Shown here: positions 1 through 45,542 of the stretch, piece after piece | Position numbering within the stretch: position 1 is the stretch's first letter | How the letters are laid out: the number at the start of each line of letters is the position of its first letter | DNA from: a phage | DNA length: 48,114 nt | Strand: one strand, 5' to 3' | Sequence record: OZ346203.1 | Position numbers and translations under genes: made by a program | Notes under the pieces: generated by a model | Told to the model about the DNA's origin: nothing | Seen by the model: only the letters and a program-made list of their open reading frames with translations | Database searches by the model: none

Positions 1-1569
1 ATGATCATATGGGAAGATTTGACGGCGGCGCAAAAGCGAGCCATTAAAGAAATCAGTGAGCATTCATTCGAAAAGATGATCAGAATCTGGTTCCAGTTAT
101 TGCAGGGGCAAAAATTCCAGAGCAACTGGCATTTTAGCTTATTGTGCAGTGAGGTAGAGAAGATCATCAATGGAGAGTCGCAGAATGTGATTTTCAACAT
201 TACGCCAGGTAGCGGTAAGACTGAGATTTTCTCGATCCACATGTCACCCTACGCGTCATTGAAAAGCCGGAAAGTGAGAAACCTTAACCTTTCGTTTAGT
301 GATGGCCTTGTCCAGCAAAACAGCAACCGGATAAAGGAGATTATTGGTTCTCCTGAGTGGCAAGAGCTATGGCCAGGAAAACTGGCAAAGGCGAGCGCCA
401 AAGATCTGATAGTCACCGAAGGCGGCAAGGTTAAATTGCAAGTTAACTCACGTTCTATTGGCGGCCAGGTAACAGGTTTGCGTGGTGGCTATATGGACGA
501 TGGTTTTACTGGTATGCTGGTTCTTGATGATCCAGACAAGCCGGATGATATGCTTTCTAAGGTAAAGCGTGAGGCTATCCACATGCGGTTAAAAAACACA
601 GTGCGATCGCGTCGAATGAAAGACACCACGCCGATTGTTATGGTGCAACAGCGACTACACGTTAATGATTCCACCTGGTTTATGCTTAATGGCGGGATGG
701 GTGGTATCGAGTTTAAAGTTGTGAGCATTCCGGCGCTGGTTACGGAAGAATACCGCGAGACGCTTCCTGATTGGTTGAAGCCTGAATTTGATCGTGATGT
801 GCTGTCAAGTAAGCCAGTGATGATAGATGGCGTTGCTCATTATTCATTTTGGCCTGCAAAGGAAAGCGCGGAGGAATTGCTTGCATTGCGCAATGCAGAT
901 CCTTACACGTTCGCCAGCCAATACCAACAGCAACCAATCGCGCTTGGCGGGAACGTGTTTAAAACAGAGTGGTTCCAGTATTACGGCAACGGCGAAAAAT
1001 GCGCGCTACCAAAACCGGATCGCTTTGAATACACATTTATTACTGGAGATACCGCGCAGAAGGCCGGAGAGCTTAACGACTATTCAGTTTTTTGTTATTG
1101 GGGGATGTATAAGAATCGCGTTTACTTCATTGATGGCATTCGCGGAAAGTGGGAAGCGCCGGATCTTGAATTAAATTTTATTGCCTTCGTTAACCAGTGT
1201 TGGAAGCGCAATAAAGAGTGTGGCAGCTTGCGACGTATCCACATTGAGGATAAGGCCAGCGGCACGGGCTTGATTCAGGGGGCCAAAAAGAAGATACCGA
1301 TTGATATAAATCCCGTTCAGCGAAGTAATGACAAGGTAACGCGCGCAATGGACGCCGCACCAGTGATGAGGGCCGGACGTGTGGCACTGCCAGAAAATCA
1401 CCCCATGCTGCCTGAGATACTGGCAGAGGTTGCAGCATTCACTTTTGATGATTCTCATCCCCATGATGATATTGTCGATAATATAGTTGATGCTGTTAAC
1501 GTCGAAATGAATTTGGCAGATGATCCGGTAGCAAGGATGAAAAAGTTGGCAGGTCTACGCAATAAATAG
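1..1569 (+). CDS. terL: terminase large subunit
   Basis: 522-aa ORF starting at ATG nt 1; Walker A-like PGSGKT and Walker B-like LVLDDPD, acidic nuclease-type C-terminal half; sits between terS (window end) and portal. Confidence 0.85.
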   Translation: MIIWEDLTAAQKRAIKEISEHSFEKMIRIWFQLLQGQKFQSNWHFSLLCSEVEKIINGESQNVIFNITPGSGKTEIFSIHMSPYASLKSRKVRNLNLSFSDGLVQQNSNRIKEIIGSPEWQELWPGKLAKASAKDLIVTEGGKVKLQVNSRSIGGQVTGLRGGYMDDGFTGMLVLDDPDKPDDMLSKVKREAIHMRLKNTVRSRRMKDTTPIVMVQQRLHVNDSTWFMLNGGMGGIEFKVVSIPALVTEEYRETLPDWLKPEFDRDVLSSKPVMIDGVAHYSFWPAKESAEELLALRNADPYTFASQYQQQPIALGGNVFKTEWFQYYGNGEKCALPKPDRFEYTFITGDTAQKAGELNDYSVFCYWGMYKNRVYFIDGIRGKWEAPDLELNFIAFVNQCWKRNKECGSLRRIHIEDKASGTGLIQGAKKKIPIDINPVQRSNDKVTRAMDAAPVMRAGRVALPENHPMLPEILAEVAAFTFDDSHPHDDIVDNIVDAVNVEMNLADDPVARMKKLAGLRNK

Positions 1570-1595
1570 CACTAATTGCTAAAAAGTTATATAAT
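1566..1595 (+). promoter_or_regulatory. degenerate copy of the conserved element plus TATAAT after terL
   Basis: ATAGCAC-TAA-TTGCTA with TATAAT only 8 bp downstream; overlaps terL stop TAG. Confidence 0.3.
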
Positions 1596-1598
1596 CAA

Positions 1599-1622
1599 GG
1601 CTGGATTTTTCCAGCCTTTTTT
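1599..1622 (+). terminator. intrinsic terminator after terL
   Basis: GGCTGGA/TCCAGCC stem followed by T6. Confidence 0.6.
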
Positions 1623-1639
1623 ATTATGGAGATTTGAAG

Positions 1640-20672: not shown

Positions 20673-20703
20673 CTTCAATACTCCTTAGTTGTTGTTGGCT
20701 GTA

Positions 20704-20746
20704 ACTATACACGATCCGACAAGCTGGGTTTAGCAAAAAGTGCTAC
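20704..20746 (-). promoter_or_regulatory. promoter-like module upstream of cor operon (element variant GTAGCAC-TTT-TTGCTA, 21-bp spacer, TATAGT)
   Basis: TATAGT 20704-20709 on the minus strand, 31 nt upstream of cor ATG. Confidence 0.5.
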
Positions 20747-26137: not shown

Positions 26138-26153
26138 ATAGCACTTTTTGCTA
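26138..26153 (-). promoter_or_regulatory. copy of the conserved element abutting the RBS of the tail fibre gene
   Basis: minus-strand TTAGCAAAAAGTGCTAT then AGGAGG and ATG 26120. Confidence 0.35.
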
Positions 26154-26185
26154 ATGACAATGCAGATAATAGCATTTTCAAGTGC

Positions 26186-27210: not shown

Positions 27211-27687
27211 TTAGCTATTCGTGCTGTTATCACCTTTGTAGAATCGTCCGCCTGGTTCGTAGTCTGAATTTTTGACTACGCGCAACATTTCGTATTTGTC
27301 GCAACGGGTAGTAAGGGGCTTACCGTTAGAGTCAAACCGCAGGTCTGGACGACAAAACGAGGCGCGGTATCCTTTGCATCCATTATATTTGTAGTCGTTA
27401 TGCACTTTTTGTGCTCCGGCGGCTGAAATCATACCACGCTTTCGCCATTGGTTAACTACTTGCTGAGATACGCGCAGACGTCGAGCCATAGCAGGAACAC
27501 CGCCGTAATACTCGATCAGAATGTCAAGGCGAGATTTCAGGCTTGCTTTTACCTCATCTCGCAGGATAAGAAATCCGGTTCGGTGTTTTCGTGGCTTTTT
27601 GTCTTTACCTCGTCGCGTTCCGTTGTTACCGTTAATAGTGCGCTTGTCGATCTCACCCGTAGACACTGCAATTCGTGCATCTTTCAT
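27211..27687 (-). CDS. putative HTH DNA-binding protein (Cro/YdaS-like)
   Basis: 158 aa; GAGGTG RBS; basic N-terminus; HTH-like MARRLRVSQQVVNQWRKRG; divergent from helicase. Confidence 0.45.
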   Translation of the reverse strand: MKDARIAVSTGEIDKRTINGNNGTRRGKDKKPRKHRTGFLILRDEVKASLKSRLDILIEYYGGVPAMARRLRVSQQVVNQWRKRGMISAAGAQKVHNDYKYNGCKGYRASFCRPDLRFDSNGKPLTTRCDKYEMLRVVKNSDYEPGGRFYKGDNSTNS

Positions 27688-27698: not shown

Positions 27699-27742
27699 AT
27701 AGCATTTTTTGTTAAAACAGTTTATTGTAATGAGTCTATTAT
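27699..27742 (+). promoter_or_regulatory. long-spacer promoter-like module (ATAGCAT-TTT-TTGTTA, 22 bp, TATTAT) upstream of helicase
   Basis: conserved element 27699-27714; -10-like TATTAT 27737-27742; ATG 32 nt downstream. Confidence 0.55.
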
Positions 27743-27774
27743 ATACTCCAAATGGCATTTTTTAAAGGTTTAAG

Positions 27775-29772
27775 ATGATTCCAAATATCGAAAAACAAAT
27801 ATCGGCGTTAGGCGAAGCAGTAATAAAAAGCATCCAAGAGCGATTCACGGTTGGCAATATAGTGCCTTATCCTTATCAGTGCGTTGCGTATGCCGAGATC
27901 GCAAAGCGCATGAAAAACTATGAACATCCTTTCTTTGTTAAGGCTTCTGTGTCGGCTGGCAAAACATTGATGTTTGCGATGGTTGCGGCGCAATGCCGCA
28001 AAATGGGATTGAAAATGATGGTGCTTGCTCGCCAGGCTGAAATTGTTGATCAGGATTCGGAAGAGATCAGCAATCTTGGCGTGCCAAACTCAATCTATTG
28101 CGCCGGACTGAAAACAAAAAGCGCATACTTTCCGATCGTAGTCGGTTCTGAGGGCACTGTAGTAAACGGATTGTTTAAGTCGTTAGGTGATTATGTTCCG
28201 CACGTTATCGGTATTGATGAATGTCACCAGGTGGATTGGGAGGATCTCGCGGACGCGATAGAAAATAATGAATCTTACCAGCAGATGACCACTAAGAAGG
28301 ATTTGCCTGTACTGATTGGAGAAGAACAGCAATTTGATTCCAATGGCGATCCAATGTTCGGAACAGGGCGCACACAGTACACCGTAATAATCATGGAAAT
28401 GATGCGCAGGTGTCGCGAGGCATACGGGCACGAATTGCGAATATTCGGTATGACTGGATCTGAGTTTCGCGGCGTGGTTCCAATACTGGTTGAAGATAAG
28501 AACAAAAAGGGATTCTGGCGTGAGCAGGTGACTAACATAGACACAAACTACTTAATCAAATTTGGTTCGGTAGTGCCAACAAATTTCGGCGACGTAGGCG
28601 ACCTGGGGTATGACCTTTCAGAGTTCGAAGCCAGTAGCGAGGATGGCGTTTCAGACTTTGACTCTAAAACATTGCGCAAGATGGAAGAAAAGATCCATCA
28701 AGACGCAACAATGACACAGAAAATCATGGCTAAAGTCCATGAGATATGCAAAGACAGGAACGGAGTTTTAGTTACATGCGCAGGGGAAAGGCACTGCAAG
28801 GAGGCCGCCGCCGCACTGCCGCCAGGCGTTGAATACAGGATCATAACTGGCAAGACTGGAGATAATCAGCGTAAAGAGTGGCTAAGGGAGGCATACGAGG
28901 GAAAAGTAAAATACATCTTCCAGGTACAGGCGCTTACCACTGGCGTTAACGTTCCGTTTTGGGATACTTCGGTAATACTGAGAAAGATAGGATCTCTAAC
29001 ATTGCTTATCCAGCTTTTGGGGCGCGGTATGCGACTGCTTAAGCAATGGCACATTGAGCAGGGATTCAAGAAAAAAGATCATCTTGTATTGGATTTTGCA
29101 GGCACTATGGATGAGTTAGGGGATTTGTATTTCGATCCAATTCTTGAGCAAGCGCAATTTCAAAAGAGATTTACAAACGGGAAAGAGCCTAAGACTTGCC
29201 CGATATGTGGAACACTAAACAGCTTTTACGCTCGCCGATGTATGCACGTAGACGATAACGGGAAACGATGCGAGCATTTTTGGACTTACAGAATTTGCGA
29301 GGACCAGGTAGATCCGAGAACGAAAAAGATAATCAAGCGCGGTTGCGGAACAAAAAACGACGTGGTGGCGAGGGTGTGCCGTTGTTGCGATATTTCTCTT
29401 GTCGATCCTAACGAGAAGTTAAGCGGCAAGCACTACACCAAAAACGATTGGTGCAACGTTAAATCTTTCCGCGTTGATATGACGAAAAACCAAAAAGGAA
29501 TTGTTTTTTGCTATGAGCTTGAGGCCAACGGCGACACGTTCAAGGCATACGAAAGATTTTTCCCTGAGTCAGAAAGCAACATTTGCCGGACGATATGGAG
29601 AAAAATAGCATTGCAGCACATACCGGATCGTAAGATTGCTGGTATGGTGGCGAGCTATAGAAATGCGCGTAAAATAATGTCATACGCTCATCACATCATG
29701 CCGCCTGTACGCGTAACGCATCGCAAAAACGGCAAAGGTGAGGATAACATTGCAAAACGGGAGTTTGTTTAA
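27775..29772 (+). CDS. SF2 DEAD/DEAH-box helicase with C-terminal zinc ribbon
   Basis: 665 aa; Walker A SAGKT, DECH box (GIDECHQ), paired CxxC motifs in C-terminus. Confidence 0.8.
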   Translation: MIPNIEKQISALGEAVIKSIQERFTVGNIVPYPYQCVAYAEIAKRMKNYEHPFFVKASVSAGKTLMFAMVAAQCRKMGLKMMVLARQAEIVDQDSEEISNLGVPNSIYCAGLKTKSAYFPIVVGSEGTVVNGLFKSLGDYVPHVIGIDECHQVDWEDLADAIENNESYQQMTTKKDLPVLIGEEQQFDSNGDPMFGTGRTQYTVIIMEMMRRCREAYGHELRIFGMTGSEFRGVVPILVEDKNKKGFWREQVTNIDTNYLIKFGSVVPTNFGDVGDLGYDLSEFEASSEDGVSDFDSKTLRKMEEKIHQDATMTQKIMAKVHEICKDRNGVLVTCAGERHCKEAAAALPPGVEYRIITGKTGDNQRKEWLREAYEGKVKYIFQVQALTTGVNVPFWDTSVILRKIGSLTLLIQLLGRGMRLLKQWHIEQGFKKKDHLVLDFAGTMDELGDLYFDPILEQAQFQKRFTNGKEPKTCPICGTLNSFYARRCMHVDDNGKRCEHFWTYRICEDQVDPRTKKIIKRGCGTKNDVVARVCRCCDISLVDPNEKLSGKHYTKNDWCNVKSFRVDMTKNQKGIVFCYELEANGDTFKAYERFFPESESNICRTIWRKIALQHIPDRKIAGMVASYRNARKIMSYAHHIMPPVRVTHRKNGKGEDNIAKREFV

Positions 29773-30191
29773 TGGCTATAACTGATAAAGGAGATTATCT
29801 TGAGTTTTACGAAAGAGATCCAACCGACACAAGAAGGGAGGTTAATCACCAGATAGATAGTTTTCAGTGGTTGACTTATGCTCATCCTTACTTGCTGGCG
29901 TGGCATACGGTAAACGAGAATGAGAAGTCTAAAGTAACGGCTATGATTGATCAGCAGTCCGGCTTGGTTAAGGGAGTAAGCGATTTCATCATCCTGATTG
30001 GTTTAAACGGAAAATACCCCTTTGCAGCGATTGAGATCAAACGAGTGAATAAATCAGGCAAGGGGAAAGCATCACCAGTCAGCGATGAGCAAAAGGCTTT
30101 TTTGCGTCGCGTTCGCAGCTTAGGAGGATTCGCTGCGGTAGCCTACGGATTCAATCAGTTTAAGTTGGCTATTGAATACATGCTTAAATAG
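29772..30191 (+). CDS. VRR-NUC domain nuclease (putative)
   Basis: 139 aa; PD-(D/E)XK-like D...E.K core (SDFIILI...AIEIKR); TAATG overlap with helicase. Confidence 0.6.
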   Translation: MAITDKGDYLEFYERDPTDTRREVNHQIDSFQWLTYAHPYLLAWHTVNENEKSKVTAMIDQQSGLVKGVSDFIILIGLNGKYPFAAIEIKRVNKSGKGKASPVSDEQKAFLRRVRSLGGFAAVAYGFNQFKLAIEYMLK

Positions 30192-30231
30192 CACTTTTTG
30201 TTAAAACTGGCGCAATGGATTGCGCCATAAT
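30188..30231 (+). promoter_or_regulatory. long-spacer promoter-like module upstream of dam
   Basis: ATAGCAC 30188-30194 (contains stop TAG), TTGTTA 30198-30203, 22-bp spacer with inverted repeat GGCGCAAT/ATTGCGCC, CATAAT 30226-30231, ATG 39 nt downstream. Confidence 0.55.
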
Positions 30232-30270
30232 TCAATAACACGAGATTGCTTTTAATAGCGGAGAAATGAA

Positions 30271-30996
30271 ATGGCTAAAGATATTTTAGATAAAGACACC
30301 CATGACGCATTCGTTAGCTTTGAGCAGTTGGAGAGAGAAACGTTTATAGGGAATGCCCTTGCAACTGGAGGCCATTACCAGGCAGTAAAGCCAAATCAAT
30401 ATTATAAGGTAAGCGGCAACCGATACGCTGGAAGCACCACGCCTGACGTTGTGCGCGATATGTGGAGCACGCCTCAAGAGATCGTGGAGTGGATGGAATC
30501 AGAATTTGGTGAATACGATCTCGACGCGGCAGCAAGCCAGGAAAACGCAGTTTGCGAGAAGTTCTATAGCAAGGAAACAAACTGCTTAAAGCGTTGGTGG
30601 GGTAGCAACAAGCACGTATGGCTTAACCCGCCGTACAGCAACCCAACTCCATTTATCAAGAAAGCAATTGAGCAAATGGAGCACAACAACCAAATTGATG
30701 TTTTGTTGCCAGCCGACAACTCTACAGCATGGTTTTATGAGGCACAGAAAAACGCGGCTGAAATCATCTGGATCACTGGCGAGGTTTACGAAGAGGGTGG
30801 AGTAGAATACTCCCGCACCGGAAGAATAGCCTTTGTGTCTGGATTGACTGGCGAGCCTGTGCAGGGCAACAATAAGGGAAGCGTGATTTTTGTCATGCGC
30901 AAACTTAAAGAAGGCGAGGAGCAGAAAACGCGATACGTTAAGATCAGCGATATTTGCCCTTCTGTAACCGAACGCCGCGCGCGCAAACGGAGCTAA
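30271..30996 (+). CDS. dam: DNA N6-adenine methyltransferase (phage Dam family)
   Basis: 241 aa; catalytic NPPY motif (WLNPPYSN), DLDAAAS SAM-binding-like motif. Confidence 0.8.
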   Translation: MAKDILDKDTHDAFVSFEQLERETFIGNALATGGHYQAVKPNQYYKVSGNRYAGSTTPDVVRDMWSTPQEIVEWMESEFGEYDLDAAASQENAVCEKFYSKETNCLKRWWGSNKHVWLNPPYSNPTPFIKKAIEQMEHNNQIDVLLPADNSTAWFYEAQKNAAEIIWITGEVYEEGGVEYSRTGRIAFVSGLTGEPVQGNNKGSVIFVMRKLKEGEEQKTRYVKISDICPSVTERRARKRS

Positions 30997-31000
30997 CACG

Positions 31001-31258
31001 ATGAAAAAAGAGAGAAGCGTTTATTTAAATGAAACTGGCGAATGGTTGTTATTTCGCGCTATGGTGTGCGATGCACTTGATAAAAATCCTAACGTGAAAA
31101 AGATGATTGATTGCGATCCGTGGGAATTTTCAAGCGCATTAGATATGAGCTTTGAGGAGACAAGAAAACTCCCGCTTGAAAAATGGCACGAACAAATCAG
31201 AAATGACATGCAAGAGTTTGTCGATTCGTGGAATTTTCAGCACGGAATGATCCACTAA
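31001..31258 (+). CDS. hypothetical protein
   Basis: 85 aa; its stop is embedded in the conserved element TAATAGCAC. Confidence 0.5.
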   Translation: MKKERSVYLNETGEWLLFRAMVCDALDKNPNVKKMIDCDPWEFSSALDMSFEETRKLPLEKWHEQIRNDMQEFVDSWNFQHGMIH

Positions 31259-31301
31259 TAGCACTTTTTGTTAAAACGCCCGGCCTAGTGTCGGGCATAA
31301 T
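31258..31301 (+). promoter_or_regulatory. long-spacer promoter-like module upstream of 31334 operon
   Basis: ATAGCAC 31258-31264, TTGTTA 31268-31273, spacer with inverted repeat, CATAAT 31296-31301. Confidence 0.55.
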
Positions 31302-31333
31302 TATTTCAACGAAGCAAACATGAGGAAATAAAA

Positions 31334-31513
31334 ATGGTGGTATTCGATAAACGCGCTTTTAATCTTGCTCAAGAAGTAGCAAAAGGTTCAGTAGAGGGCG
31401 GTTCAAAGGAAGGATTCCAGTTTGATTGGGGCATCGCGATGTTTTTACTGAAAGTTGCATACGGTCACGCGCCAATTGAACAAGCGGAGACATATTATAA
31501 GCATGAAGGTTGA
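31334..31513 (+). CDS. hypothetical small protein (below the ORF-track length cutoff)
   Basis: 59 aa; GAGGAA RBS; 32 nt downstream of promoter-like element 31258-31301; ATGA-coupled to the next gene. Confidence 0.5.
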   Translation: MVVFDKRAFNLAQEVAKGSVEGGSKEGFQFDWGIAMFLLKVAYGHAPIEQAETYYKHEG

Positions 31514-31745
31514 GCAAGGAAGAGATGCAGTATGGAATCACGCTAAAGAATGCGGAATAGCCGACGATATAAAGAAGATCGCGCAATACTTTGATATTGC
31601 AGATGTGAGCATAATTAGCGGCGACAAGATGACTTTCCTCAAGGAAAGGCCGCGAAAAATGGTAAGAGTTCCAGCAGTTCCAACAAAAATTGATTTCAAA
31701 GAGGCAATGGCTAAAATCCGAGAGCCTCGCAAATATTATAAATGA
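31503..31745 (+). CDS. hypothetical protein
   Basis: 80 aa from ATG 31503 (internal Met of track ORF 31455-31745), coupled to upstream stop. Confidence 0.45.
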   Translation: MKVEQGRDAVWNHAKECGIADDIKKIAQYFDIADVSIISGDKMTFLKERPRKMVRVPAVPTKIDFKEAMAKIREPRKYYK

Positions 31746-31839
31746 GGATAGTTATCATGTGGCGCTTGTTTGTTCTACCGTTACCCGTTATCATCGCTGT
31801 TACAGTTATGTACCATATAGTGATGAGATAGGTAGCAGA

Positions 31840-32955
31840 ATGAAAAATGTAAAAATTACAGATGAGCAATTCAAGATCGAACGGGCGGCAGGTAAGACAT
31901 ATAAACAGATCGCTCAAGAGTACGGAATGAATGTGAGAAGCGTCGAGCGTCGCGCGGCGCGTCTTGCAAAGCAAGGGCAGTTATCGACCATCGGGGCGCC
32001 TGGTTTTGGTGTTCATGGTGAGTCAGTAATGACTGACAAAGAAGGAAATATAATCCTCAAGTGGACCAAAACCAGCAAGGATAAAGAGCAATTAGAGGCA
32101 CTGATGCGCGCAGCAATGGAGGCATTTAGCGAGGAAGTGCCGCGATTAGATCCAGTTCCATTGCAGGAGCGTAACTATAATGAAACGCTTTCATTGTATC
32201 CGATCTTTGACATGCACTTAGGCGCTATGGCCCATAAGCACGAATGCGGCGAAAATTGGGATACTGCGACGGCAGAGCGCGTTATGAATAACTTTATCGA
32301 CTATGCTTTGATGTGCGCACCGGACAGCGAAAAGGCTGTTATCCTGATTGGTGGCGATATGCTGCATAGCGACGGCCTGGAGGCGGTGACACCTGCAAGC
32401 GGTCACGTACTTGATCAAGATAGCCGATATGCAAAATTGGTTTACGTTGCAATACGTGCAGTGCGCCGCGCAATTAATAAAATGCTGTTAAAGCATAAAC
32501 ATGTTGAGGTCCAGGTCGTAGAGGGTAATCACGACCAATCAGGAATGATTTGGCTACGCGCAGCAATGGCGGCAGCATATGAGAACGAGCCGCGCGTTTA
32601 CGTTGATGTTTCTCCTCGCGTTGTTCACCACACGCAATACGGAAAAACTTTCCTTGCGTACCATCACGGGCACACAGTGCGCAAACCTGAGACTTTGCTA
32701 ATGATGTGCGCGTCAGATTGGCGGGAGGACTTCGGAAACTCAAAAACTATGTATGCGCACGTAGGGCACTGGCATCACCAGACTGTGACGGAAACGTCGC
32801 TTGGCATCGTTGAGGTGCATAGCACCCTGGCGGCAAAAGACGCATACGCCGCGCGCGGTGGCTGGAGATCTCGACGCCGTGCAGCGGTTATCATTTACGA
32901 CAAAGAGCATGGAGAAGTGGGGCGATTTGTTCACTATCCAGAAATGATGAATTGA
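31840..32955 (+). CDS. metallophosphoesterase (Mre11/SbcD-like motifs) with N-terminal HTH-like domain
   Basis: about 371 aa from ATG 31840 (31847 alternative); motifs DMHLG, GGDMLHSDG, GNHDQ, HHGH, GHWHH; N-terminal HTH-like stretch. Confidence 0.5.
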   Translation: MKNVKITDEQFKIERAAGKTYKQIAQEYGMNVRSVERRAARLAKQGQLSTIGAPGFGVHGESVMTDKEGNIILKWTKTSKDKEQLEALMRAAMEAFSEEVPRLDPVPLQERNYNETLSLYPIFDMHLGAMAHKHECGENWDTATAERVMNNFIDYALMCAPDSEKAVILIGGDMLHSDGLEAVTPASGHVLDQDSRYAKLVYVAIRAVRRAINKMLLKHKHVEVQVVEGNHDQSGMIWLRAAMAAAYENEPRVYVDVSPRVVHHTQYGKTFLAYHHGHTVRKPETLLMMCASDWREDFGNSKTMYAHVGHWHHQTVTETSLGIVEVHSTLAAKDAYAARGGWRSRRRAAVIIYDKEHGEVGRFVHYPEMMN

Positions 32956-33002
32956 TGAATTTTTATTTAAATCAATGACAAATTAAATCAAAAACTTGCA
33001 AA

Positions 33003-33030
33003 GGGGCGGCGTTTGTCGCCTCTTTTTTTT
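33003..33030 (+). terminator. putative terminator after metallophosphoesterase gene
   Basis: imperfect GC hairpin (G-U wobbles) plus T8. Confidence 0.45.
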
Positions 33031-33100
33031 GTTTAATTTTTTACCATGTAAGTTTATCATTCGGTCAATATATTGACTTTAATTAATATGGAGAATAAAA

Positions 33101-33316
33101 ATGAAAGATTTTATTAACGCAGCTACCGCCGGATCTGGCGGTTCATCTATCGCAAGCGCAGCTACAGGGCAGTTAACCATTGCTATTGCCAGCTTTGTTT
33201 TAATGGCTGCATTCGGTGCATGGGGCGCTTACCTTCGCTGGCGTGATAGTAAAAAATTCCACGAGGCGATCGAAAAAGGTGATATTCAAAAAGCTATTGA
33301 AATCAGGGGCAAGTAA
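33101..33316 (+). CDS. holin (putative)
   Basis: 71 aa; one strong TMD, charged C-terminus; immediately upstream of lysozyme. Confidence 0.65.
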
Positions 33317-33807
33317 TGAGCATAAAGAACAAGGTAGCGGCTGCGGCCTTTGGCGTTGCGGTTGCCTTGACTTCTCCACTTCTTGAAGAGATCGAAGGGG
33401 TAAGATACAAGCCATACAAAGATATTGCGGGAGTATGGACTGTTTGCGCAGGAATAACCGGACCAGATGTTATCCTGGGGAAAACGTACACTAAAAAAGA
33501 GTGTGATGCTTTGTTGGCTAAACATATCCAGGTTGCTAAAAAAGAAGTTGACAAGCAAGTTAAGGTTGACATTCCTGATAGTATGCGTGCAGCAATGTAC
33601 TCATTCACTTATAATGCAGGAGTTGGAGCTTTCAGAAATTCAACAATGCTGAAACTCATCAACCAGGGGAAATTAAACGAGGCTTGCGATCAGCTTTATC
33701 GTTGGACGTATTACCATAACCCCAAAACAGGAAAGCGCGAGAAGTCTAAAGGCTTACTTAACAGGCGCAAGGTCGAATACAAATATTGCACAATGGATCT
33801 GAAATGA
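33316..33807 (+). CDS. endolysin (lysozyme, GH24-like)
   Basis: 163 aa; N-terminal [10 protein letters not shown]...[10 protein letters not shown] catalytic region typical of lambda R/T4 E-type lysozymes. Confidence 0.85.
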
Positions 33808-34199
33808 TGAAGAAATTTTTACTTACACCAATCGCAATGGCGGTGATCTTGTCTGGATGTTCAAGCGTTACGCCACTGACCGGATTAATCGGCAGTAAGC
33901 CGGAAATAACAGCACAGGCTGGCGCGGAGAACGTGAAGCAGACAGTTGGCATTACAGCAAAGCAGGACGCCAGCACAAAACAGAAAACCACAATAAAGGA
34001 ATCTGCGGTTGACAAGGTGGACACGTCCAGCAAGAAGGATTTCACAACATCAACCATTCAGGCCAATACCATCAAGGCAGACAAAATTCAGGTCGTGCAG
34101 GGTAATAACGGCAGATGGTACGATCCAGTAATCATATGCGTGGTTGTGTTAATTGTGCTGATTTGTCTTTACTGGAGAGAAAAGAAAAAGGAGGCTTAA
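33804..34199 (+). CDS. unimolecular spanin (u-spanin, T1 gp11-like)
   Basis: 131 aa from ATG 33804; N-terminal lipoprotein signal (ILSGCSS) plus C-terminal TMD ([16 protein letters not shown]); last lysis-cassette gene. Confidence 0.7.
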
Positions 34200-34218
34200 T
34201 GCCTCCTTTATTTTTATG
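34181..34218. terminator. bidirectional terminator between spanin and minus-strand gene 34214-34438
   Basis: GGAGGC/GCCTCC hairpin with A-run upstream and T-run downstream. Confidence 0.55.
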
Positions 34219-34438
34219 CGTCGGGCCACATATGAGTTTCGTTTGTTGGCTTGTTCGATTCGTCGTACTGCCTTACTTCAATGCTGAAAGTGTCGCCGTA
34301 CAGTTCTGCAATCTTGCGCTCATTTTCAACCGCCGATTGCTCACTCCATCCAAAATCCCTGTCGTAAATTGTCGGGATTTCAGCAGAAGATCCGTTGTCA
34401 TGATTATATACGCGAACTACTAAAAACTTGCTGGACAT
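34214..34438 (-). CDS. hypothetical protein
   Basis: 74 aa; own copy of the promoter-like element upstream (34475-34518). Confidence 0.5.
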   Translation of the reverse strand: MSSKFLVVRVYNHDNGSSAEIPTIYDRDFGWSEQSAVENERKIAELYGDTFSIEVRQYDESNKPTNETHMWPDA

Positions 34439-34474
34439 AATTTTACCTTTTGGTTGTTTCGTTTCGATGAAACA

Positions 34475-34518
34475 AATATACCCGACACTAGGCCGGGCGT
34501 TTTAACAAAAAATGCTAT
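34475..34518 (-). promoter_or_regulatory. long-spacer promoter-like module upstream of 34438 gene
   Basis: minus-strand ATAGCAT-TTT-TTGTTA, 22 bp, TATATT; shares an identical 31-nt stretch with the 31258 copy. Confidence 0.55.
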
Positions 34519-34635
34519 TCCATACGCTTTACCGTAACCAGTAATACACCATCATCATTGCATAAAACATGTTCAGTGGTGCTAAAAGCGCGCATATCTG
34601 AATAAAGTAGCGTAAGTAAAGCATGAATAAAATCC

Positions 34636-35031
34636 TCATGTGATATTGAATTTACGGCGCAGTGCTTCAAGATCTTGTCTATTAGCTTTTGCCTGGAACA
34701 ATTCATCATCGCCCATCTCCCCTATTCTCGCCATATCCCTGATCCAGTCGTTGCGCATACCATCCAGGCTATACAATTCGAATCCGAAAGGCCGCTTTGA
34801 CGATCCTTTGGACCAGTATTTTCCGCAGACCCCATCTATATAACCAGCCGTCATCATTCTTGCGCAAAATTCCTTAGATGCAAGGCTGGCGAACATTCGC
34901 GGCGTAAGTCCGGCGGCCCGTGCGAGCCGCTCACATTCTCTATGCTGATAGATAAATTTGGCTATGTGCTGCCTGTTAAACCAGTCGTATGACTCACACC
35001 ATTTATACAGATCAAGCAAAAACATAATCAT
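34636..35031 (-). CDS. hypothetical protein
   Basis: 131 aa; ATGA start overlap with stop of the 526-aa gene. Confidence 0.45.
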   Translation of the reverse strand: MIMFLLDLYKWCESYDWFNRQHIAKFIYQHRECERLARAAGLTPRMFASLASKEFCARMMTAGYIDGVCGKYWSKGSSKRPFGFELYSLDGMRNDWIRDMARIGEMGDDELFQAKANRQDLEALRRKFNIT

Positions 35032-36608
35032 CCCAGCAGTATTGGATTGACAAAAATAACACCATTAATCACACAAACATAATTTCTTTCTTCCAGCATT
35101 GGCAGCAAGTGCCCTTCTATCCTCTTCATTACGCCAGCCTGACCAACGAAAGGTTTTACCTTTCTCGCCGATTCGTACAGGGCGCGAATATTCAGGATAC
35201 CTTTGTTAGCCTTGCCGTGCCTCGTGATCAATTCAATCAATTTACCCATTTCAGCATCATCACCAGCATAACCAGAAGCATTGGCGGCGCTAATGTATGT
35301 TTTGCTCAATTCCTGAAACATGATCAACGCCTCTTGCATTGTTTCCACGTCGATCTCTTTCGACTTCTGCGGGTATCCGGCAGGATTAAACCAGTTACGG
35401 ATAACATGCAGGACGGAAGCAAGCCTGATCACCTGTTTATCCATTTTACCCAGCGCACCGCGTAACATTGTATGAGAATACTTTCCGCCGTCTGCAAGAT
35501 GCGGTTCCATATCCTGGCGAGCAATGTTGAGCACTCGCATAGCTGAGCGGCTTATTTTCAGCGATATATTTGATTCGCTCATGATGTTATGCACCAATTG
35601 ATAATATTGGGCTTTCAATTCAGAATCCACCGCCTCATAGGTAGAATCACCATTTTCATCAATGAATGAGCGACGGCCTAAGAATGATTCTTCGCGGACC
35701 AACAAAAAGCGCTCACTCACACCGATACCGCGCGATCCAGCGTCCATGATACCGCTTATCGTTTCATCCTGTGCTATAACGCTCATGCATCCAAGCGCGC
35801 GAAAACTCATATTATTGTCAGCATTAGCACGGGCAATTGATACGTGACCATTATCCCACGCCTTAAGCACTAGCTCACTGTTAGTCTTCCTTTCGCTATT
35901 TGCATAGGTCAAGCCTAACAGGCTATTAATACTTGTTGCTTCGTCAGATATTACGGCAAAGTTACCTTGCTTGTTGTTGATTTTCGCCAAGCCTTCTGGA
36001 GTTGTATCTGAAACAGGAAAAGTTATATCACACATTTTTTCCAGCTTTTCCTCCAGATCCTCTTTTTCCTGGTATAGAGATTCCATATCAGCGCCGGATC
36101 TTTCGCTTTTCATCTCCTTTGCAAGACCTGCCAGCTTTGCCTGTATTTTCTTTCTTTCCTTGCGGCGTTGCTCGTTGATCTTCTCAACTTCCGCAATCAT
36201 CGGAGCAATAGCCATACTGTTGATCGCAGATTTACCAGTTGACGGCGGCTGGCTTGTAACGACGTAAAGCGCAGTCGGCTGATCGGTTCCGTGATAGTCA
36301 ACCGTAAAGCGTCCAAGCATAGCGGCAGAAATGCAGCCGATAAAGTGCATGTAAGCCGATGATTCAGGGAATTGAACGGATCGCGCAATGCTGCGTGATA
36401 ACTTGCCTACAACATCAATATCATTACCAAGAGAAATAACGGGGTAGCGATCGTGACCGCTATTCACATCCTTTACGTCGCCCCAAAAGCTGGACGACTG
36501 GCGATAGCCGTTAGCCTGAATTGATACGCGAACTGGCGAAAGGTTCTGGCTTTCAGCCATAGCGATTATTTGCTGTGGAGTTAATTTGTTCGTTTCTAAT
36601 GAAAACAT
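35028..36608 (-). CDS. large early protein, putative replication-associated ATPase (DUF3987-like?)
   Basis: 526 aa; AGGAG RBS; P-loop-like QPPSTGKSA; first gene behind promoter-like element 36637-36680. Confidence 0.35.
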   Translation of the reverse strand: MFSLETNKLTPQQIIAMAESQNLSPVRVSIQANGYRQSSSFWGDVKDVNSGHDRYPVISLGNDIDVVGKLSRSIARSVQFPESSAYMHFIGCISAAMLGRFTVDYHGTDQPTALYVVTSQPPSTGKSAINSMAIAPMIAEVEKINEQRRKERKKIQAKLAGLAKEMKSERSGADMESLYQEKEDLEEKLEKMCDITFPVSDTTPEGLAKINNKQGNFAVISDEATSINSLLGLTYANSERKTNSELVLKAWDNGHVSIARANADNNMSFRALGCMSVIAQDETISGIMDAGSRGIGVSERFLLVREESFLGRRSFIDENGDSTYEAVDSELKAQYYQLVHNIMSESNISLKISRSAMRVLNIARQDMEPHLADGGKYSHTMLRGALGKMDKQVIRLASVLHVIRNWFNPAGYPQKSKEIDVETMQEALIMFQELSKTYISAANASGYAGDDAEMGKLIELITRHGKANKGILNIRALYESARKVKPFVGQAGVMKRIEGHLLPMLEERNYVCVINGVIFVNPILLG

Positions 36609-36636
36609 TCGTTAGCTTCTCCTTTGTGGGCCGTAA

Positions 36637-36680
36637 ATTTTAACGGCCCAATACTACCCCGTTTTGTCAAAAAGTGCTAT
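36637..36680 (-). promoter_or_regulatory. long-spacer promoter-like module upstream of the 526-aa gene
   Basis: ATAGCAC-TTT-TTGACA, 22-bp spacer containing hairpin GGGCCGT/ACGGCCC, TAAAAT. Confidence 0.5.
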
Positions 36681-36898
36681 TTGATCCGCTCTATTGCAAC
36701 CAGAAGTCGATCAGGCTGGCGGTCGCTGTAGCATTCTCCTGTAATCCCATCCTTAAACGTAAAGTAAAGCGCCTTATGATATGAAAAACCAATCAGCCAA
36801 CCTACCGCCGTTTTTTTGATGGGCCTGACTATATCGCCAGGCTTGAAAGTCTTTGTGGTAGAATGCGTTACTTTGTAACGGTTTTCACTGTTTATCAC
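36677..36898 (-). CDS. hypothetical protein
   Basis: 73 aa; GTG start overlapping upstream stop (GTGA); no internal Met. Confidence 0.4.
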   Translation of the reverse strand: MINSENRYKVTHSTTKTFKPGDIVRPIKKTAVGWLIGFSYHKALYFTFKDGITGECYSDRQPDRLLVAIERIK

Positions 36899-37281
36899 AG
36901 ATATTTTCCCTCAAAAAGATAACAGCCGCCAGCAGAGAATCCGACCTCTTCACGGTACAGGTTCCAGCGGTCGCCGCACTCATCAAAAACATAACCCGCA
37001 ACGCTTCCAAGCGGTCGCCCTTTCTCGATCTGGTATCGCTTGCCCTGCTTAAAGTGCTTTTTGCACGGCATGTTATGATCTACAAACGTGCAAAGAACGG
37101 TTTTTGTGTTAATGGCGCGGTAATCATCTCGGTTTGCTGGAAGCCAGCGGCTACCCTTAACAAGCGTCTTAACTTGGAACTCTTCCACCTCGATCACATC
37201 ATTACTTCCTGCAATCTTCTGATAAACCGTTTTAAAACGGCCTTTCATCAATACGTTGGTTTCATTACAGATAACATTCAT
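36895..37281 (-). CDS. hypothetical protein
   Basis: 128 aa; AGGAG RBS; downstream of promoter-like element 37311-37354. Confidence 0.5.
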   Translation of the reverse strand: MNVICNETNVLMKGRFKTVYQKIAGSNDVIEVEEFQVKTLVKGSRWLPANRDDYRAINTKTVLCTFVDHNMPCKKHFKQGKRYQIEKGRPLGSVAGYVFDECGDRWNLYREEVGFSAGGCYLFEGKYL

Positions 37282-37310
37282 GATCAGATCTCCTTTGTTT
37301 GTTCGATGTG

Positions 37311-37354
37311 ATTATGCCAGGTTTTTACACCTGGCTTTTAACAAAAAGTGCTAT
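37311..37354 (-). promoter_or_regulatory. long-spacer promoter-like module upstream of 37281 gene
   Basis: ATAGCAC-TTT-TTGTTA, 22-bp spacer with hairpin CCAGGTG/CACCTGG, CATAAT. Confidence 0.55.
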
Positions 37355-38061
37355 TTTGAGTTTGACTCAAAGACGGCGCGAGCAAAGCCGCGCGGAGTGA
37401 GGGAGCGGATCATCTTTGTGCGCGATGACTTGCCGCCAGTTTTGGCCCATCCTGGATTATCTTTGTCTTCCTCTTTCGGCAGGATTAAAGCGCGTGGAGG
37501 AATAACAAAGCCGTTGCCAGTCCAGAGGCACGTTTTCTTAAAGTAGCGATCCCGCGCCGGAATAATATCAGGGAAGTCGGGATGTTTATCATCTTCCGGC
37601 AGATAGCCAGCGTAATCGCACGGATGGAACGTATAATCAGGCTTTCGCCATAACGTTGACAACTTGCCAACCGGATTTTCGATCATGTAAGGAACACCGA
37701 AATAATCAGCTATATCAGCCGCGATCCTGCAAGTGTCGGCGGCCTCATCCTGGAACGATGGATTCTCAAGGCGTTTTTTGGCCCAATGGCGAGATCCGCT
37801 ATTTGCAAGGTCGGTGCATGGTGGAAATGCCATAATAAAGTCAGGAATGCCCCATTCCTCCCAGCGCGCGCGGTGGTAAAATCTTTCATCAATCCAGACG
37901 TTAACGTATTCGATATTCTCATGCTGTATGCGCACTGACTGGTAATCACCGTGATCGCCGCCGTCAGCATTAAAGCAAATGCACTTATAGCCATTATCAG
38001 CCCAATCTTTAACGGCTTTACCAGATCCATCAAATAGGGAGAATATTAAACCTTTATACAT
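37351..38061 (-). CDS. putative DNA (cytosine-5) methyltransferase-like protein
   Basis: 236 aa from ATG 38061 with GAGGT RBS (track start 38130 overlaps the upstream gene); motifs in C5-MTase order: FSLFDGSG, FPPCTDLANSG, ENPVG. Confidence 0.45.
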   Translation of the reverse strand: MYKGLIFSLFDGSGKAVKDWADNGYKCICFNADGGDHGDYQSVRIQHENIEYVNVWIDERFYHRARWEEWGIPDFIMAFPPCTDLANSGSRHWAKKRLENPSFQDEAADTCRIAADIADYFGVPYMIENPVGKLSTLWRKPDYTFHPCDYAGYLPEDDKHPDFPDIIPARDRYFKKTCLWTGNGFVIPPRALILPKEEDKDNPGWAKTGGKSSRTKMIRSLTPRGFARAVFESNSK

Positions 38062-38071
38062 CGTAATTACC

Positions 38072-39197: not shown

Positions 39198-39228
39198 CTT
39201 TAAATCCTCGTTTGTTGTCGATGGGTGT

Positions 39229-39272
39229 AATATACCATTCAGGAGCACATCGTTTTTAACAAAAAGTGCTAT
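39229..39272 (-). promoter_or_regulatory. long-spacer promoter-like module upstream of 39197 gene
   Basis: ATAGCAC-TTT-TTGTTA, 22 bp, TATATT, then conserved leader ACACCCATCGACAAC...GAGGATTT. Confidence 0.55.
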
Positions 39273-39701: not shown

Positions 39702-39734
39702 TTTCAAATCCTCACATTCGTTGTCGATGCGTGT

Positions 39735-39778
39735 AATGTACAGGAATGCGAGGATTGAGTTTTAACAAAAAGTGCTAT
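39735..39778 (-). promoter_or_regulatory. long-spacer promoter-like module upstream of 39701 ORF
   Basis: ATAGCAC-TTT-TTGTTA, 22 bp, TACATT, then conserved leader ACACGCATCGACAAC...GAGGATTT. Confidence 0.55.
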
Positions 39779-40042: not shown

Positions 40043-40054
40043 GGTTATTACTCC

Positions 40055-41004: not shown

Positions 41005-41038
41005 TGCTATCTCCTGAGCGGTTCGTTTTGATGTGTGT

Positions 41039-41082
41039 AATGTACCCGATCAGACGGCCTGAGTTTTAACAAAAAGTGCTAT
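41039..41082 (-). promoter_or_regulatory. long-spacer promoter-like module upstream of leftward early operon
   Basis: ATAGCAC-TTT-TTGTTA, 22 bp, TACATT; ATG of 41004 gene 34 nt downstream. Confidence 0.55.
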
Positions 41083-42858: not shown

Positions 42859-42897
42859 CACTTTTGCAAAAACAGATTATCGGGCTTGCGGTATAGT
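42855..42897 (+). promoter_or_regulatory. long-spacer promoter-like module upstream of 42929 gene
   Basis: ATAGCAC-TT-TTGCAA, 22-bp spacer with hairpin GGGCTT/AAGCCC, TATAGT 42892-42897. Confidence 0.5.
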
Positions 42898-42928
42898 AAG
42901 CCCATCAACAACGAACGAGGATTAAATC

Positions 42929-44176: not shown

Positions 44177-44216
44177 CACGAATTGCTAAACGCGGGGTTA
44201 TCGGCCCCGCTATAAT
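44173..44216 (+). promoter_or_regulatory. long-spacer promoter-like module upstream of 44247 gene
   Basis: ATAGCAC-GAA-TTGCTA, 22-bp spacer with hairpin GCGGGG/CCCCGC, consensus TATAAT 44211-44216. Confidence 0.55.
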
Positions 44217-45467: not shown

Positions 45468-45510
45468 TAGCACTTTTTGTTAAAACTTCCGCAAGGGCAT
45501 TTGATAAAGT
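45467..45510 (+). promoter_or_regulatory. long-spacer promoter-like module upstream of 45543 operon
   Basis: ATAGCAC 45467-45473 fused to stop TAA, TTGTTA 45477-45482, 22-bp spacer with hairpin AAGGGCA/TGCCCTT, TAAAGT. Confidence 0.5.
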
Positions 45511-45542
45511 GCCCTTATTGAAGCGAAACAGAGGAAAGCGCA

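What the first reader, a model, noticed from the sequence alone, without database searches (positions are those of the whole stretch)
30204..30231. GC-rich inverted repeats embedded in the 22-bp promoter spacers, with the -10-like hexamer in or just after the loop
In at least 8 promoter-like modules the spacer between TTGNTA and the -10 hexamer holds a different perfect inverted repeat each time: GGCGCAAT/ATTGCGCC (30204-30225), CCCGGC/GTCGGG (31274-31295 and 34481-34502), GGGCTT/AAGCCC around TATAGT (42876-42900), AAGGGCA/TGCCCTT around TAAAGT (45490-45514), GCGGGG/CCCCGC (44191-44210), CCAGGTG/CACCTGG (37317-37338), GGGCCGT/ACGGCCC around TAAAAT (36628-36650). The sequences differ but the position is conserved, so this looks like a structural rather than sequence-specific requirement. 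Possibilities: cruciform extrusion shortening the effective -35/-10 distance, RNA hairpins ending upstream transcripts without a U-tract, or processing sites.
Basis: partly seen in the sequence, partly recalled or inferred. Interest (0 to 1): 0.6.

Follow-up and report, generated by a model that had tools for sequence, protein, structure and literature searches.

The report
RNA hairpins nested in phage promoters
In this T1-like coliphage, most of the repeated promoter modules that follow another gene carry a small GC-rich stem-loop squeezed between the conserved promoter elements; comparative evidence indicates it is selected as an RNA structure at the end of the upstream gene's message, not as part of the promoter.

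Summary
The window is a Drexlerviridae (Warwickvirus, 98% to phage tiwna) genome. The "modules" are the known 21-nt repeat aaATAGCACnnnTTGnTAAAA, described in phage TLS with unknown function.

Across 223 modules from relatives, a -10 hexamer sits exactly 22 bp after TTGnTA. It comes with a conserved G at -14, an A at +1 and a conserved leader.

In 103 non-redundant modules, 59% fold at or below -5 kcal/mol, against 5.5% after column permutation. Stems covary at orthologous sites with complete sequence turnover.

Pairing is strand-specific. G·T outnumbers A·C 36 to 11, sense RNA is more stable than antisense, and GNRA/UUCG loops occur only on the sense strand.

Hairpins track position, not promoter identity. 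They occur in 26 of 31 orthologous modules that follow a co-directional gene, against 2 of 15 at divergent operon heads. In Klebsiella phage 1513 the counts are 12/12 against 0/2.

They occupy only the unconstrained positions: class A spans -30 to -12; class B spans -24 to -1 with the -10 in the loop.

Best reading: terminator-like RNA stem-loops without a U-tract, marking or protecting upstream mRNA 3' ends. Cruciform "spacer shortening" is not supported. No transcript map exists, so the function remains inferred.

The parts
30188..30206 (+). 21-nt-repeat core (ATAGCACTTTTTGTTAAAA), at -50 to -32 of the module upstream of the dam-like methylase gene. The TAG inside it is the stop codon of the upstream VRR-NUC gene.
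   Evidence: ORF list; annotation of tiwna
30208..30227 (+). Class A hairpin: 8 pairs, 4-nt loop. It fills the spacer and its 3' arm runs into the first bases of the hexamer CATAAT (30226-30231). Predicted +1 near 30238.
   Evidence: (-12.4 kcal/mol, z -3.4)
31258..31276 (+). Repeat core of the next module. It overlaps the TAA stop of ORF 31001-31258.
31278..31296 (+). Class A hairpin GCCCGGC-CTAGT-GTCGGGC with one G·U pair, followed by ATAATTATTT. It is one of only two window hairpins scored terminator-like on the sense strand.
   Evidence: -13.0; five orthologues, all hairpins, compensatory C-G to A-U change
34480..34498 (-). The same hairpin in the inverted copy of the module (core 34500-34518, hexamer TATATT 34475-34480), followed by ATATTTGTTT.
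36627..36650 (-). Class B hairpin (8 pairs) with the hexamer TAAAAT (36637-36642) in its loop. The module core is 36662-36680, upstream of the 526-aa helicase gene.
   Evidence: -15.6; six orthologues all have hairpins with unrelated stems; 7 of 9 pairs show double changes.
37316..37335 (-). Class A hairpin GCCAGGT-GTAAAA-ACCTGGC. Its last base is the first base of CATAAT (37311-37316). Module core 37336-37354.
   Evidence: (-14.0, z -5.4)
42882..42903 (+). Class B hairpin GGGCTTGC/GTAAGCCC with one G·U pair, with TATAGT (42892-42897) in the loop and 3' arm. The stem ends one base before the predicted +1 A (42904). The module core 42855-42872 has a 1-nt deletion.
   Evidence: -14.9, z -4.8
44192..44210 (+). 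Class A hairpin GCGGGG(UU)/(GG)CCCCGC directly before TATAAT (44211-44216). Module core 44173-44191, GAA subtype.
   Evidence: -14.2
45493..45516 (+). Class B hairpin AAGGGCA/TGCCCTT plus extension, with T35 G36 and TAAAGT (45505-45510) in the loop. The stem ends at -1. An outer helix CTTC/GAAG pairs -31..-28 with +4..+7. Module core 45467-45485.
   Evidence: -14.2, z -3.7; covariation
1566..1624 (+). Variant module: the repeat core is followed not by a -10 element but by a canonical intrinsic terminator (GGCTGGA-TTTT-TCCAGCC plus T6) in the same position as the hairpins.
   Evidence: -15.3, z -4.8
27699..27748 (+). Hairpin-less module at a divergent operon head (helicase gene). It serves as a natural control.
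   Evidence: z +0.4; 10 of 12 orthologues lack a stable hairpin, i.e. RNA energy above -9 kcal/mol
20697..20746 (-). Hairpin-less module at a divergent operon head.
41033..41082 (-). Hairpin-less module at a divergent operon head.
39223..39272 (-). Tandem module without a hairpin in this phage. Orthologues in other phages do carry one.
39729..39778 (-). Tandem module without a hairpin in this phage. One of three orthologues carries one.

Best explanation
The hairpins are RNA stem-loops that belong to the transcript arriving from the upstream gene, not to the promoter. In these phages genes are packed so tightly that the stop codon of the upstream gene lies inside the promoter's conserved upstream element. 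The whole 75-nt intergenic space is then taken up by the promoter module, its leader and the ribosome-binding site.

A terminator-like, GC-rich stem-loop for the upstream message can therefore only be written into positions the promoter leaves free:
- Class A uses the spacer. The stem spans about -30 to -12 and often turns the hexamer into CATAAT.
- Class B uses the spacer plus the discriminator. The stem spans about -24 to -1, with the -10 hexamer in the loop.

Once transcribed by read-through polymerase, the stem-loop defines or protects the 3' end of the upstream mRNA. It would act as a barrier to 3' exonucleases after processing, and at best as a weak attenuator, because a U-tract is generally missing.

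Shown here: the structure is selected, it is sense-strand specific, and it depends on an upstream co-directional gene. Inferred: the molecular role (3'-end stabiliser or attenuator) and that the modules are active promoters.
For: 1. Enrichment: 59% of 103 non-redundant modules fold at or below -5 kcal/mol, against 5.5% after column permutation.
2. Covariation in a class B sub-family of 17 sequences: 96.3% of cells paired against 81% shuffled and at most 48% slid; 6 pairs and 24 cells with double changes.
3. Six helicase-promoter orthologues have unrelated stems, and 7 of 9 pairs are compensatory.
4. Strand specificity: a strand-symmetric stem finder gives 36 internal G·T against 11 A·C (p = 3.5e-4; permuted control 1171:1386). 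By my reading of the listing, most of the A·C cases come from extension into the conserved AAAAC/CATAAT flanks.
5. Sense RNA is 1.6 kcal/mol more stable than antisense (p = 9e-5; permuted control +0.45 +/- 0.21).
6. Six of 9 tetraloops are GNRA or UUCG on the sense strand; none is the antisense equivalent.
7. Positional dependence by ORF context: hairpins in 45 of 63 modules preceded by a co-directional ORF against 9 of 24 without (p = 0.006).
8. Positional dependence by orthologous position: 26 of 31 tandem against 2 of 15 divergent (p = 6.5e-6).
9. In annotated Klebsiella phage 1513 (a different genus): 12 of 12 tandem against 0 of 2 divergent.
10. In the window: 9 of 11 against 0 of 6 (p = 0.002).
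11. The TAG within ATAGCAC is the upstream stop codon in 40 of 63 modules, so the hairpin starts about 17-20 nt after the stop.
12. The same slot holds true terminators in some modules: window 1566, and TLS T62 after DR12 and T57 after DR10.
13. Stem 3' ends are bimodal, at position 38 (-12) and position 49 (-1), which are the edges of the conserved blocks.
Against: - There are no transcript data. No TSS map, Term-seq or RNA-seq for any Drexlerviridae was found in the searchable literature, so neither promoter activity nor 3' ends are demonstrated.
- The T content after the stems is low: 3.6 of 10 for class A and 1.8 of 10 for class B. Only 2 of 8 window hairpins score as terminators, so efficient intrinsic termination is unlikely and the exact role is open.
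- G·T is also the most tolerated mismatch in single-stranded DNA, so a non-template-strand DNA hairpin is not strictly excluded.
- 9 of 24 modules without a long upstream ORF still have hairpins, and two tandem modules in the window have none.
Confidence: 0.55

Rival explanations
1. This is a DNA-level promoter element. The inverted repeat extrudes as a cruciform or hairpin on supercoiled phage DNA and is needed for, or tunes, initiation. It would do so by changing the effective -35/-10 distance, or by presenting the -10 element single-stranded, in the manner of N4 virion-polymerase hairpin promoters.
For: - The hairpins overlap the core promoter at sharply defined positions, with the -10 hexamer in the loop in class B.
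- Class A imposes a C at hexamer position 1 in 16 of 28 modules, against 6 of 31 without a hairpin.
- The TTGnTA element lies at a non-canonical 22 bp.
Against: - Two different registers relative to +1, and about 40% of modules with none, do not fit a fixed structural requirement.
- Operon-head promoters of the same architecture lack hairpins.
- Pairing is asymmetric between strands: G·T 36 against A·C 11. A cruciform needs both strands to pair.
- The arms are only 6-9 bp with loops up to 10 nt.
- Extruding class A would leave 3-4 bp between the hexamers, and extruding class B would remove the -10 element (geometry read).
- The TLS authors reported no evidence of a phage RNA polymerase or sigma gene in that relative's genome. 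This was not checked in the window.
Confidence: 0.1
2. The hairpins are terminators for antisense transcription. Read on the opposite strand, a class A stem is followed by GTTTTAAC, the complement of the conserved TAAAAC, which could stop polymerases entering the upstream gene from the wrong direction.
For: - Class A stems start at positions 19-21, directly against TAAAAC.
- The 34480-34498 hairpin lies where rightward and leftward units meet.
Against: - The G·U asymmetry, the energy difference and the GNRA/UUCG loops all favour the sense strand.
- Class B hairpins have no T-run on either strand.
- The antisense T-run is only 4 T long.
- The terminator scan did not flag these sites on the antisense strand.
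- The correlation is with a co-directional upstream gene.
Confidence: 0.05
3. The hairpins are a regulatory RNA signal acting on the transcribing polymerase. Conserved linear motif plus hairpin would act like a nut or put site. Alternatively, the nascent hairpin would cooperate with a sigma70-dependent pause at the -10-like hexamer to force U-tract-independent termination and re-initiation at every module.
For: - In read-through RNA a conserved 20-nt sequence is followed by a stem-loop and then a -10-like element.
- There is sense-strand RNA selection.
- There are very few canonical terminators or sigma70 promoters in the early regions (TLS paper).
Against: - Loop and stem sequences are not conserved, unlike boxB.
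- The distance between hairpin and hexamer differs between classes.
- The motif also occurs without a hairpin at operon heads, where a DNA promoter role suffices.
- No antiterminator homologue was looked for.
Confidence: 0.12
4. The hairpins are RNase processing sites. The stem-loop next to the A/U-rich motif directs endonucleolytic cutting (RNase E type) that separates the cistrons.
For: - An A/U-rich single-stranded segment (CUUUUUGUUAAAAC) lies directly 5' of a stable stem.
- The positional dependence is the same as for the main explanation.
Against: - The stems are too short for RNase III, at 6-9 bp.
- No cleavage data exist.
- This largely overlaps the main explanation, since processing plus a 3' barrier are two steps of one pathway.
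Confidence: 0.13

Closest known systems
21-nt intergenic direct repeats of T1-like phages (aaATAGCACnnnTTGnTAAAA; phage TLS, PMC11447400)
   Same: The consensus, copy number (about 17 here, 18 intergenic in TLS), orientation with transcription, and distance to the start codon (72-83 nt here, about 76 in TLS) all match.
   Different: That paper does not report the fixed -10 hexamer, G-14, +1 or leader downstream of the repeat, nor the hairpins. It lists the repeat's function as an open question. Two of its predicted terminators (T62, T57) are in fact hairpins in this slot.
Intrinsic (Rho-independent) terminators
   Same: Both have a GC-rich 6-9 bp stem and GNRA/UUCG tetraloops, lie about 20 nt after a stop codon, and are sense-strand specific. 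In some modules a full terminator occupies the same slot.
   Different: There is no U-tract: on average 3.6 (class A) or 1.8 (class B) T in the 10 nt after the stem. Only 2 of 8 in the window pass a simple terminator scan.
Intercistronic mRNA-stabilising stem-loops (for example REP hairpins in malEFG; 3' ends of Rho-dependent transcripts trimmed back to a stem-loop). This comparison rests on established knowledge, not on a test made here.
   Same: Both are stem-loops without a U-tract, downstream of a cistron in a multi-gene transcript.
   Different: Here each hairpin has a unique sequence and is superimposed on a promoter core, including the -10 hexamer in its loop.
Phage N4 early promoters (DNA hairpins recognised by virion RNA polymerase). 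This comparison rests on established knowledge.
   Same: Both are short stems of variable sequence at promoters.
   Different: The TLS authors reported no phage RNA polymerase gene in that relative. Hairpin position is not fixed and hairpins are absent from about 40% of modules. The asymmetry favours the non-template or RNA strand.
Lambda nut sites (boxA plus boxB)
   Same: Both have a conserved linear motif followed by a small hairpin in the RNA.
   Different: boxB loops are conserved and protein-specific; here loops and stems vary freely. The module has promoter hallmarks.

Membership tests
Drexlerviridae 21-nt direct repeat module | Consensus aaATAGCACnnnTTGnTAAAA in many copies | tested here: met
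   13 copies with at most 3 mismatches against 0.01 expected; 17 modules with relaxed matching.
Drexlerviridae 21-nt direct repeat module | Intergenic, oriented with transcription, about 76 nt upstream of a start codon | tested here: met
   Distances are 72-83 nt. 14 of 17 are oriented with the downstream gene; 3 are antisense to the surrounding late genes.
Sigma70 promoter | -10 hexamer TAnnnT at a fixed place | tested here: met
   Positions 38-43: T148 A199 T170 A149 A120 T195 of 223. A at +1 in 187 of 223.
Sigma70 promoter | -35 hexamer 16-18 bp upstream of the -10 | tested here: not met
   TTGnTA lies 22 bp upstream, and the sequence at the canonical place is AAAACn. The consensus scan does not pick the modules.
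Extended -10 promoter | TG at -15/-14 | tested here: inconclusive
   G at -14 in 185 of 223, but T at -15 in only 100 of 223.
Sigma70 promoter | Mapped transcription start | not testable with these tools
   No transcript map was found.
Intrinsic terminator | GC-rich stem-loop downstream of a gene on the sense strand | tested here: met
Intrinsic terminator | U-tract directly after the stem | tested here: not met
   Mean 3.6 of 10 T (class A) and 1.8 of 10 T (class B). Only 31278-31296(+) and 34498-34480(-) pass the scan. Window 1566 is a true exception.
Cruciform-forming inverted repeat | Pairing equally good on both strands | tested here: not met
   G·T 36 against A·C 11. Sense RNA is more stable than antisense, against the compositional expectation.
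Cruciform-forming inverted repeat | Extrusion on supercoiled DNA | not testable with these tools
   This needs nuclease probing.
N4-type hairpin promoter | Hairpin at one fixed position in every promoter | tested here: not met
   There are two registers (3' ends at -12 or -1), and 31 of 103 modules have no stable hairpin.
nut-like antitermination site | Conserved hairpin loop sequence | tested here: not met
   Loops and stems differ in every module.
Rfam RNA families | Match at gathering score | tested here: not met
   No matches in the whole window.

The most novel reading that the evidence does not exclude
Each module is a combined stop-and-restart device. The nascent hairpin from a read-through polymerase, together with the -10-like hexamer just downstream (a sigma70-dependent pause signal) and the weak A/U-rich hybrid, causes termination without a U-tract exactly on top of the next promoter. 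Every small gene would then become an insulated 'transcripton' whose output is set by its own promoter.
Probability: 0.1. Interest if true: 0.75.

Novelty: new variant of a known kind. Interest (0 to 1): 0.5.

Why it matters
The function of the 21-nt repeats is an explicitly stated open question for T1-like phages (PMC11447400).

This analysis adds a precise module anatomy:
- upstream element at -50 to -32;
- G at -14;
- -10 hexamer at a fixed 22 bp;
- A at +1;
- a conserved leader.

It also shows that a second, independent signal is overlaid on the module: a covarying sense-strand stem-loop tied to upstream transcription.

If confirmed, this would be a clear example of how extreme genome compaction forces an mRNA 3'-end element and a promoter core to share the same 30 bp. 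It also gives testable predictions for transcript maps of a very common family of therapeutic coliphages and Klebsiella phages. Practically, annotators should stop calling these hairpins terminators or ignoring them, and promoter predictors should not expect a 17-bp spacer here.

Tried and rejected
- Chance or composition is rejected. Dinucleotide shuffles and column permutations do not reproduce the hairpins, the strand bias or the G·T excess.
- Cruciform shortening of the spacer is rejected on geometry and strand asymmetry.
- Antisense terminator is rejected on strand evidence.
- Canonical intrinsic terminator is not met for most hairpins.
- Rfam found nothing.
- Literature searches for transcript maps, or for the motif, in Drexlerviridae found only the TLS paper.
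- RNAalifold on the 31258-type orthologues gave no structure, because a 1-nt register shift was not gapped by MAFFT. The individual folds are the evidence for that site.
- 44708 (ATAGCAC) is a chance heptamer, not a module.
- The IMG/VR pattern scan returned many single chance hits in unrelated contigs. Only loci with at least 2 motif copies were used.
- The candidate motif-binding protein (27211-27687, minus strand) gave only sub-threshold Cro/YdaS-like HTH hits. This was not pursued.

Full report
**Identity of the window.** Megablast of 28000-36000 gives 98% identity over 100% of the query to Escherichia phage tiwna and relatives, with 492 matching records. The taxonomy is Drexlerviridae, Tempevirinae, Warwickvirus. 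The window is therefore a T1-like virulent siphophage genome.

**What the "promoter modules" are.** The pattern ATAGCACTTTTTGTTAAAAC occurs 13 times with at most 3 mismatches, against 0.01 expected. With relaxed matching there are 17 modules.

This is the 21-nt direct repeat aaATAGCACnnnTTGnTAAAA described in phage TLS. There it has 18 intergenic copies, is oriented with transcription and lies about 76 nt upstream of start codons. Its function is unknown: the authors suggest a stoperator, an enhancer site or an UP element, and list it as an open question (PMC11447400). That paper does not mention a downstream -10 element or hairpins. Two of its predicted terminators (T62 after DR12, T57 after DR10) sit directly after repeats.

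**Anatomy of the module.** I collected modules from IMG/VR contigs that hold at least two copies, from tiwna and from the window. This gave 223 unique sequences. Position 0 is the A of ATAGCAC. The family conserves the following:
- G at position 36 in 185 of 223;
- the hexamer T-A-T-A-A-T at positions 38-43 (A39 in 199, T43 in 195);
- C49 and A50 (187 of 223), which I take as +1;
- a leader cATCgAAAC.

However, TTGnTA then lies at -40 to -35, and the canonical -35 place reads AAAACn. The conserved G at -14 suggests an extended -10-like promoter, with an upstream element (-50 to -32) read by the alpha-CTD or by a phage factor. That recognition step is inference.

A consensus sigma70 scan does not pick up the modules. 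It finds only one perfect promoter, at 41638-41665. Distances from position 0 to the ATG are 72-83 nt.

**Checking the observation in the window.** All eight hairpins exist. Folded as RNA, positions 16-55 give -10.9 to -15.6 kcal/mol, with z-scores from -1.5 to -5.4 against dinucleotide shuffles. Six other modules are indistinguishable from shuffles.

- 31274 and 34481 are one sequence, present as a 62-nt inverted duplication.
- Two of the quoted repeats are not perfect.
- Three hairpins use the discriminator rather than only the spacer.

**More than chance, family-wide.** In 103 non-redundant modules (under 75% identity over positions 19-56), 59% have a DNA folding energy at or below -5 kcal/mol. 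After permuting each alignment column among modules, which keeps position-specific composition, the figure is 5.5% (maximum 10.7%). At -7 kcal/mol the figures are 31% against 0.8%.

The stems fall into two registers:
- Class A fills the spacer. The 5' arm starts at positions 19-21 and the 3' end peaks at position 38, the first hexamer base.
- Class B has its 5' arm at positions 26-35, holds the hexamer in the loop, and has a 3' end peaking at position 49, which is -1.

Class A modules have C as the first hexamer base in 16 of 28, against 6 of 31 in hairpin-less modules.

**Selection for pairing.**
- In a sub-family of class B modules (the 45467 type, 17 distinct sequences), 96.3% of cells form standard pairs. 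The shuffled control gives 81% and slid partners at most 48%. Six pairs and 24 cells carry double changes.
- At the orthologous promoter of the 526-aa helicase, six phages (70-100% protein identity) all carry a class B hairpin of -14 to -19 kcal/mol with unrelated stem sequences. RNAalifold finds 9 pairs, 7 with compensatory changes.
- The 31258-type site has five orthologues. All are hairpins, and they include a C-G to A-U compensatory change and GAAA/GAGA loops.

**Which strand, RNA or DNA.**
- A stem finder that treats G·T and A·C alike, and is therefore strand-symmetric, finds 36 internal G·T and 11 A·C (binomial p = 3.5e-4). Column-permuted controls give 1171:1386. By my reading of the listing, most of the A·C cases arise from extension into the conserved AAAAC/CATAAT flanks.
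- Sense RNA folds 1.6 kcal/mol better than antisense (Wilcoxon p = 9e-5). The permuted control goes the other way (+0.45 +/- 0.21).
- Six of nine tetraloops are GNRA or UUCG on the sense strand, and none is the antisense equivalent.

The structure is therefore selected on the sense strand. It would be present only in RNA that arrives from upstream, because the predicted start lies downstream of, or at the 3' edge of, the stems.

**Dependence on upstream transcription.**
- The TAG inside ATAGCAC is the stop codon of a co-directional ORF of at least 60 codons in 40 of 63 modules.
- Hairpins occur in 45 of 63 such modules, against 9 of 24 without a long upstream ORF (Fisher p = 0.006).
- By orthologous position, 26 of 31 tandem modules have RNA energy at or below -9 kcal/mol, against 2 of 15 at divergent operon heads (p = 6.5e-6). 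The helicase-gene promoter in the divergent region (27699 type) lacks a stable hairpin (RNA energy above -9 kcal/mol) in 10 of 12 orthologues.
- In the annotated genome of Klebsiella phage 1513 (genus Webervirus), all 12 tandem modules have hairpins (-7.2 to -16.4 kcal/mol), the 2 divergent ones do not (-1.9 and -1.6), and one module is followed by a true terminator.
- In the window the counts are 9 of 11 against 0 of 6 for GC-rich hairpins (p = 0.002).

**Not canonical terminators.** The 10 nt after the stems hold on average 3.6 T (class A) or 1.8 T (class B). Only 31278-31296(+) and 34498-34480(-) pass a simple terminator scan, on the sense strand. In a few modules, such as window 1566, the same slot holds a full terminator with a T-run and no -10 element.

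**Interpretation.** The simplest model that fits all of this is as follows. The intergenic space is fully occupied by the promoter module. A terminator-like RNA stem-loop belonging to the upstream cistron is written into the only unconstrained positions, namely the spacer (or the spacer plus the discriminator). This explains:
- the two sharp registers;
- the variable sequences;
- the sense-strand signature;
- the absence at operon heads.

Its probable role is to define or protect the 3' end of the upstream mRNA, as an exonuclease barrier after processing, with weak attenuation at best. That role is inferred; no transcript map of any Drexlerviridae was found.

**Rivals.**
- Cruciform shortening of the spacer fails on geometry. 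Class A extrusion would leave 3-4 bp between the hexamers, and class B extrusion would remove the -10 element. It also fails on strand asymmetry and on the 30-40% of modules without hairpins.
- An antisense terminator (stem plus GTTTTAAC) is contradicted by the strand evidence.
- A nut-like signal, or a pause-coupled termination device, is not excluded but has no specific support.
- RNase processing is compatible with the main model and partly overlaps it.

**Novelty.** The repeat itself is known. Two things are not described in the literature I could search: the fixed promoter anatomy downstream of the repeat, and the covarying, sense-specific hairpins that depend on upstream transcription. 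The kind of element, a terminator-like intercistronic RNA hairpin, is known. Its systematic nesting inside a promoter core, with the -10 hexamer in the loop, is a new variant.

Noticed in passing
31257-31318 and 34458-34519: A 62-nt inverted repeat (89% complementary) made of two copies of the same promoter module plus hairpin, facing each other. They bracket 3.1 kb that holds small ORFs, the phosphoesterase, the holin, endolysin and spanin genes, and one minus-strand ORF. It could be a recombination or module-exchange boundary.
   Followed up: partly
6190-6209(-), 9945-9964(-), 26138-26157(+), 27699-27718(+): Four repeat copies lie on the strand opposite to an adjacent gene and end within about 12 nt of that gene's ribosome-binding site. 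The genes are a late gene at 6256, the tape-measure chaperone at 9979, the tail fibre at 26144 and the HTH regulator at 27687. The reverse complement of the motif would then be in, or just before, those 5' leaders.
   Followed up: no
9882-9964(-): The antisense-oriented module at 9964(-) has a good TGaTAGATT element at the canonical distance. It would fire straight into the bidirectional terminator after the major tail gene, giving an RNA of about 40 nt. Its spacer also folds into a 15-bp A/U plus G·U RNA hairpin (z -6.7) that is not stable as DNA.
   Followed up: partly
module position 1-3, e.g. 30189-30191, 44174-44176, 42856-42858, 36677-36679(-): The TAG inside the conserved ATAGCAC is used as the stop codon of the upstream gene, in 40 of 63 family modules. 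In a few, the variable triplet (TAA) is the stop instead.
   Followed up: yes
module positions 49-60, e.g. 37295-37305(-), 42903-42915(+): There is a conserved initial transcribed sequence, cATCgAAAC(g)A, starting at the predicted +1 in most modules across the family. Its function is unknown; it could affect the leader, translation or promoter escape.
   Followed up: no
41638-41665(+): This is the only perfect sigma70 consensus promoter (TTGACA-16-TATAAT) in 28000-47900. It lies at the head of the rightward small-gene block and is probably the immediate-early promoter.
   Followed up: no
1566-1624(+): A repeat core is followed by TATAAT only 8 bp after TTGCTA, and then by a canonical terminator in place of the usual -10 element. 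This is a motif-plus-terminator variant, also seen in TLS (DR10/T57) and in Klebsiella phage 1513 (40073+).
   Followed up: partly
27211-27687(-): The annotated 'transcriptional regulator' (158 aa) gives only sub-threshold Cro/YdaS-like helix-turn-helix hits. It sits in the divergent region next to a repeat copy and is a candidate binder of the 21-nt element.
   Followed up: partly
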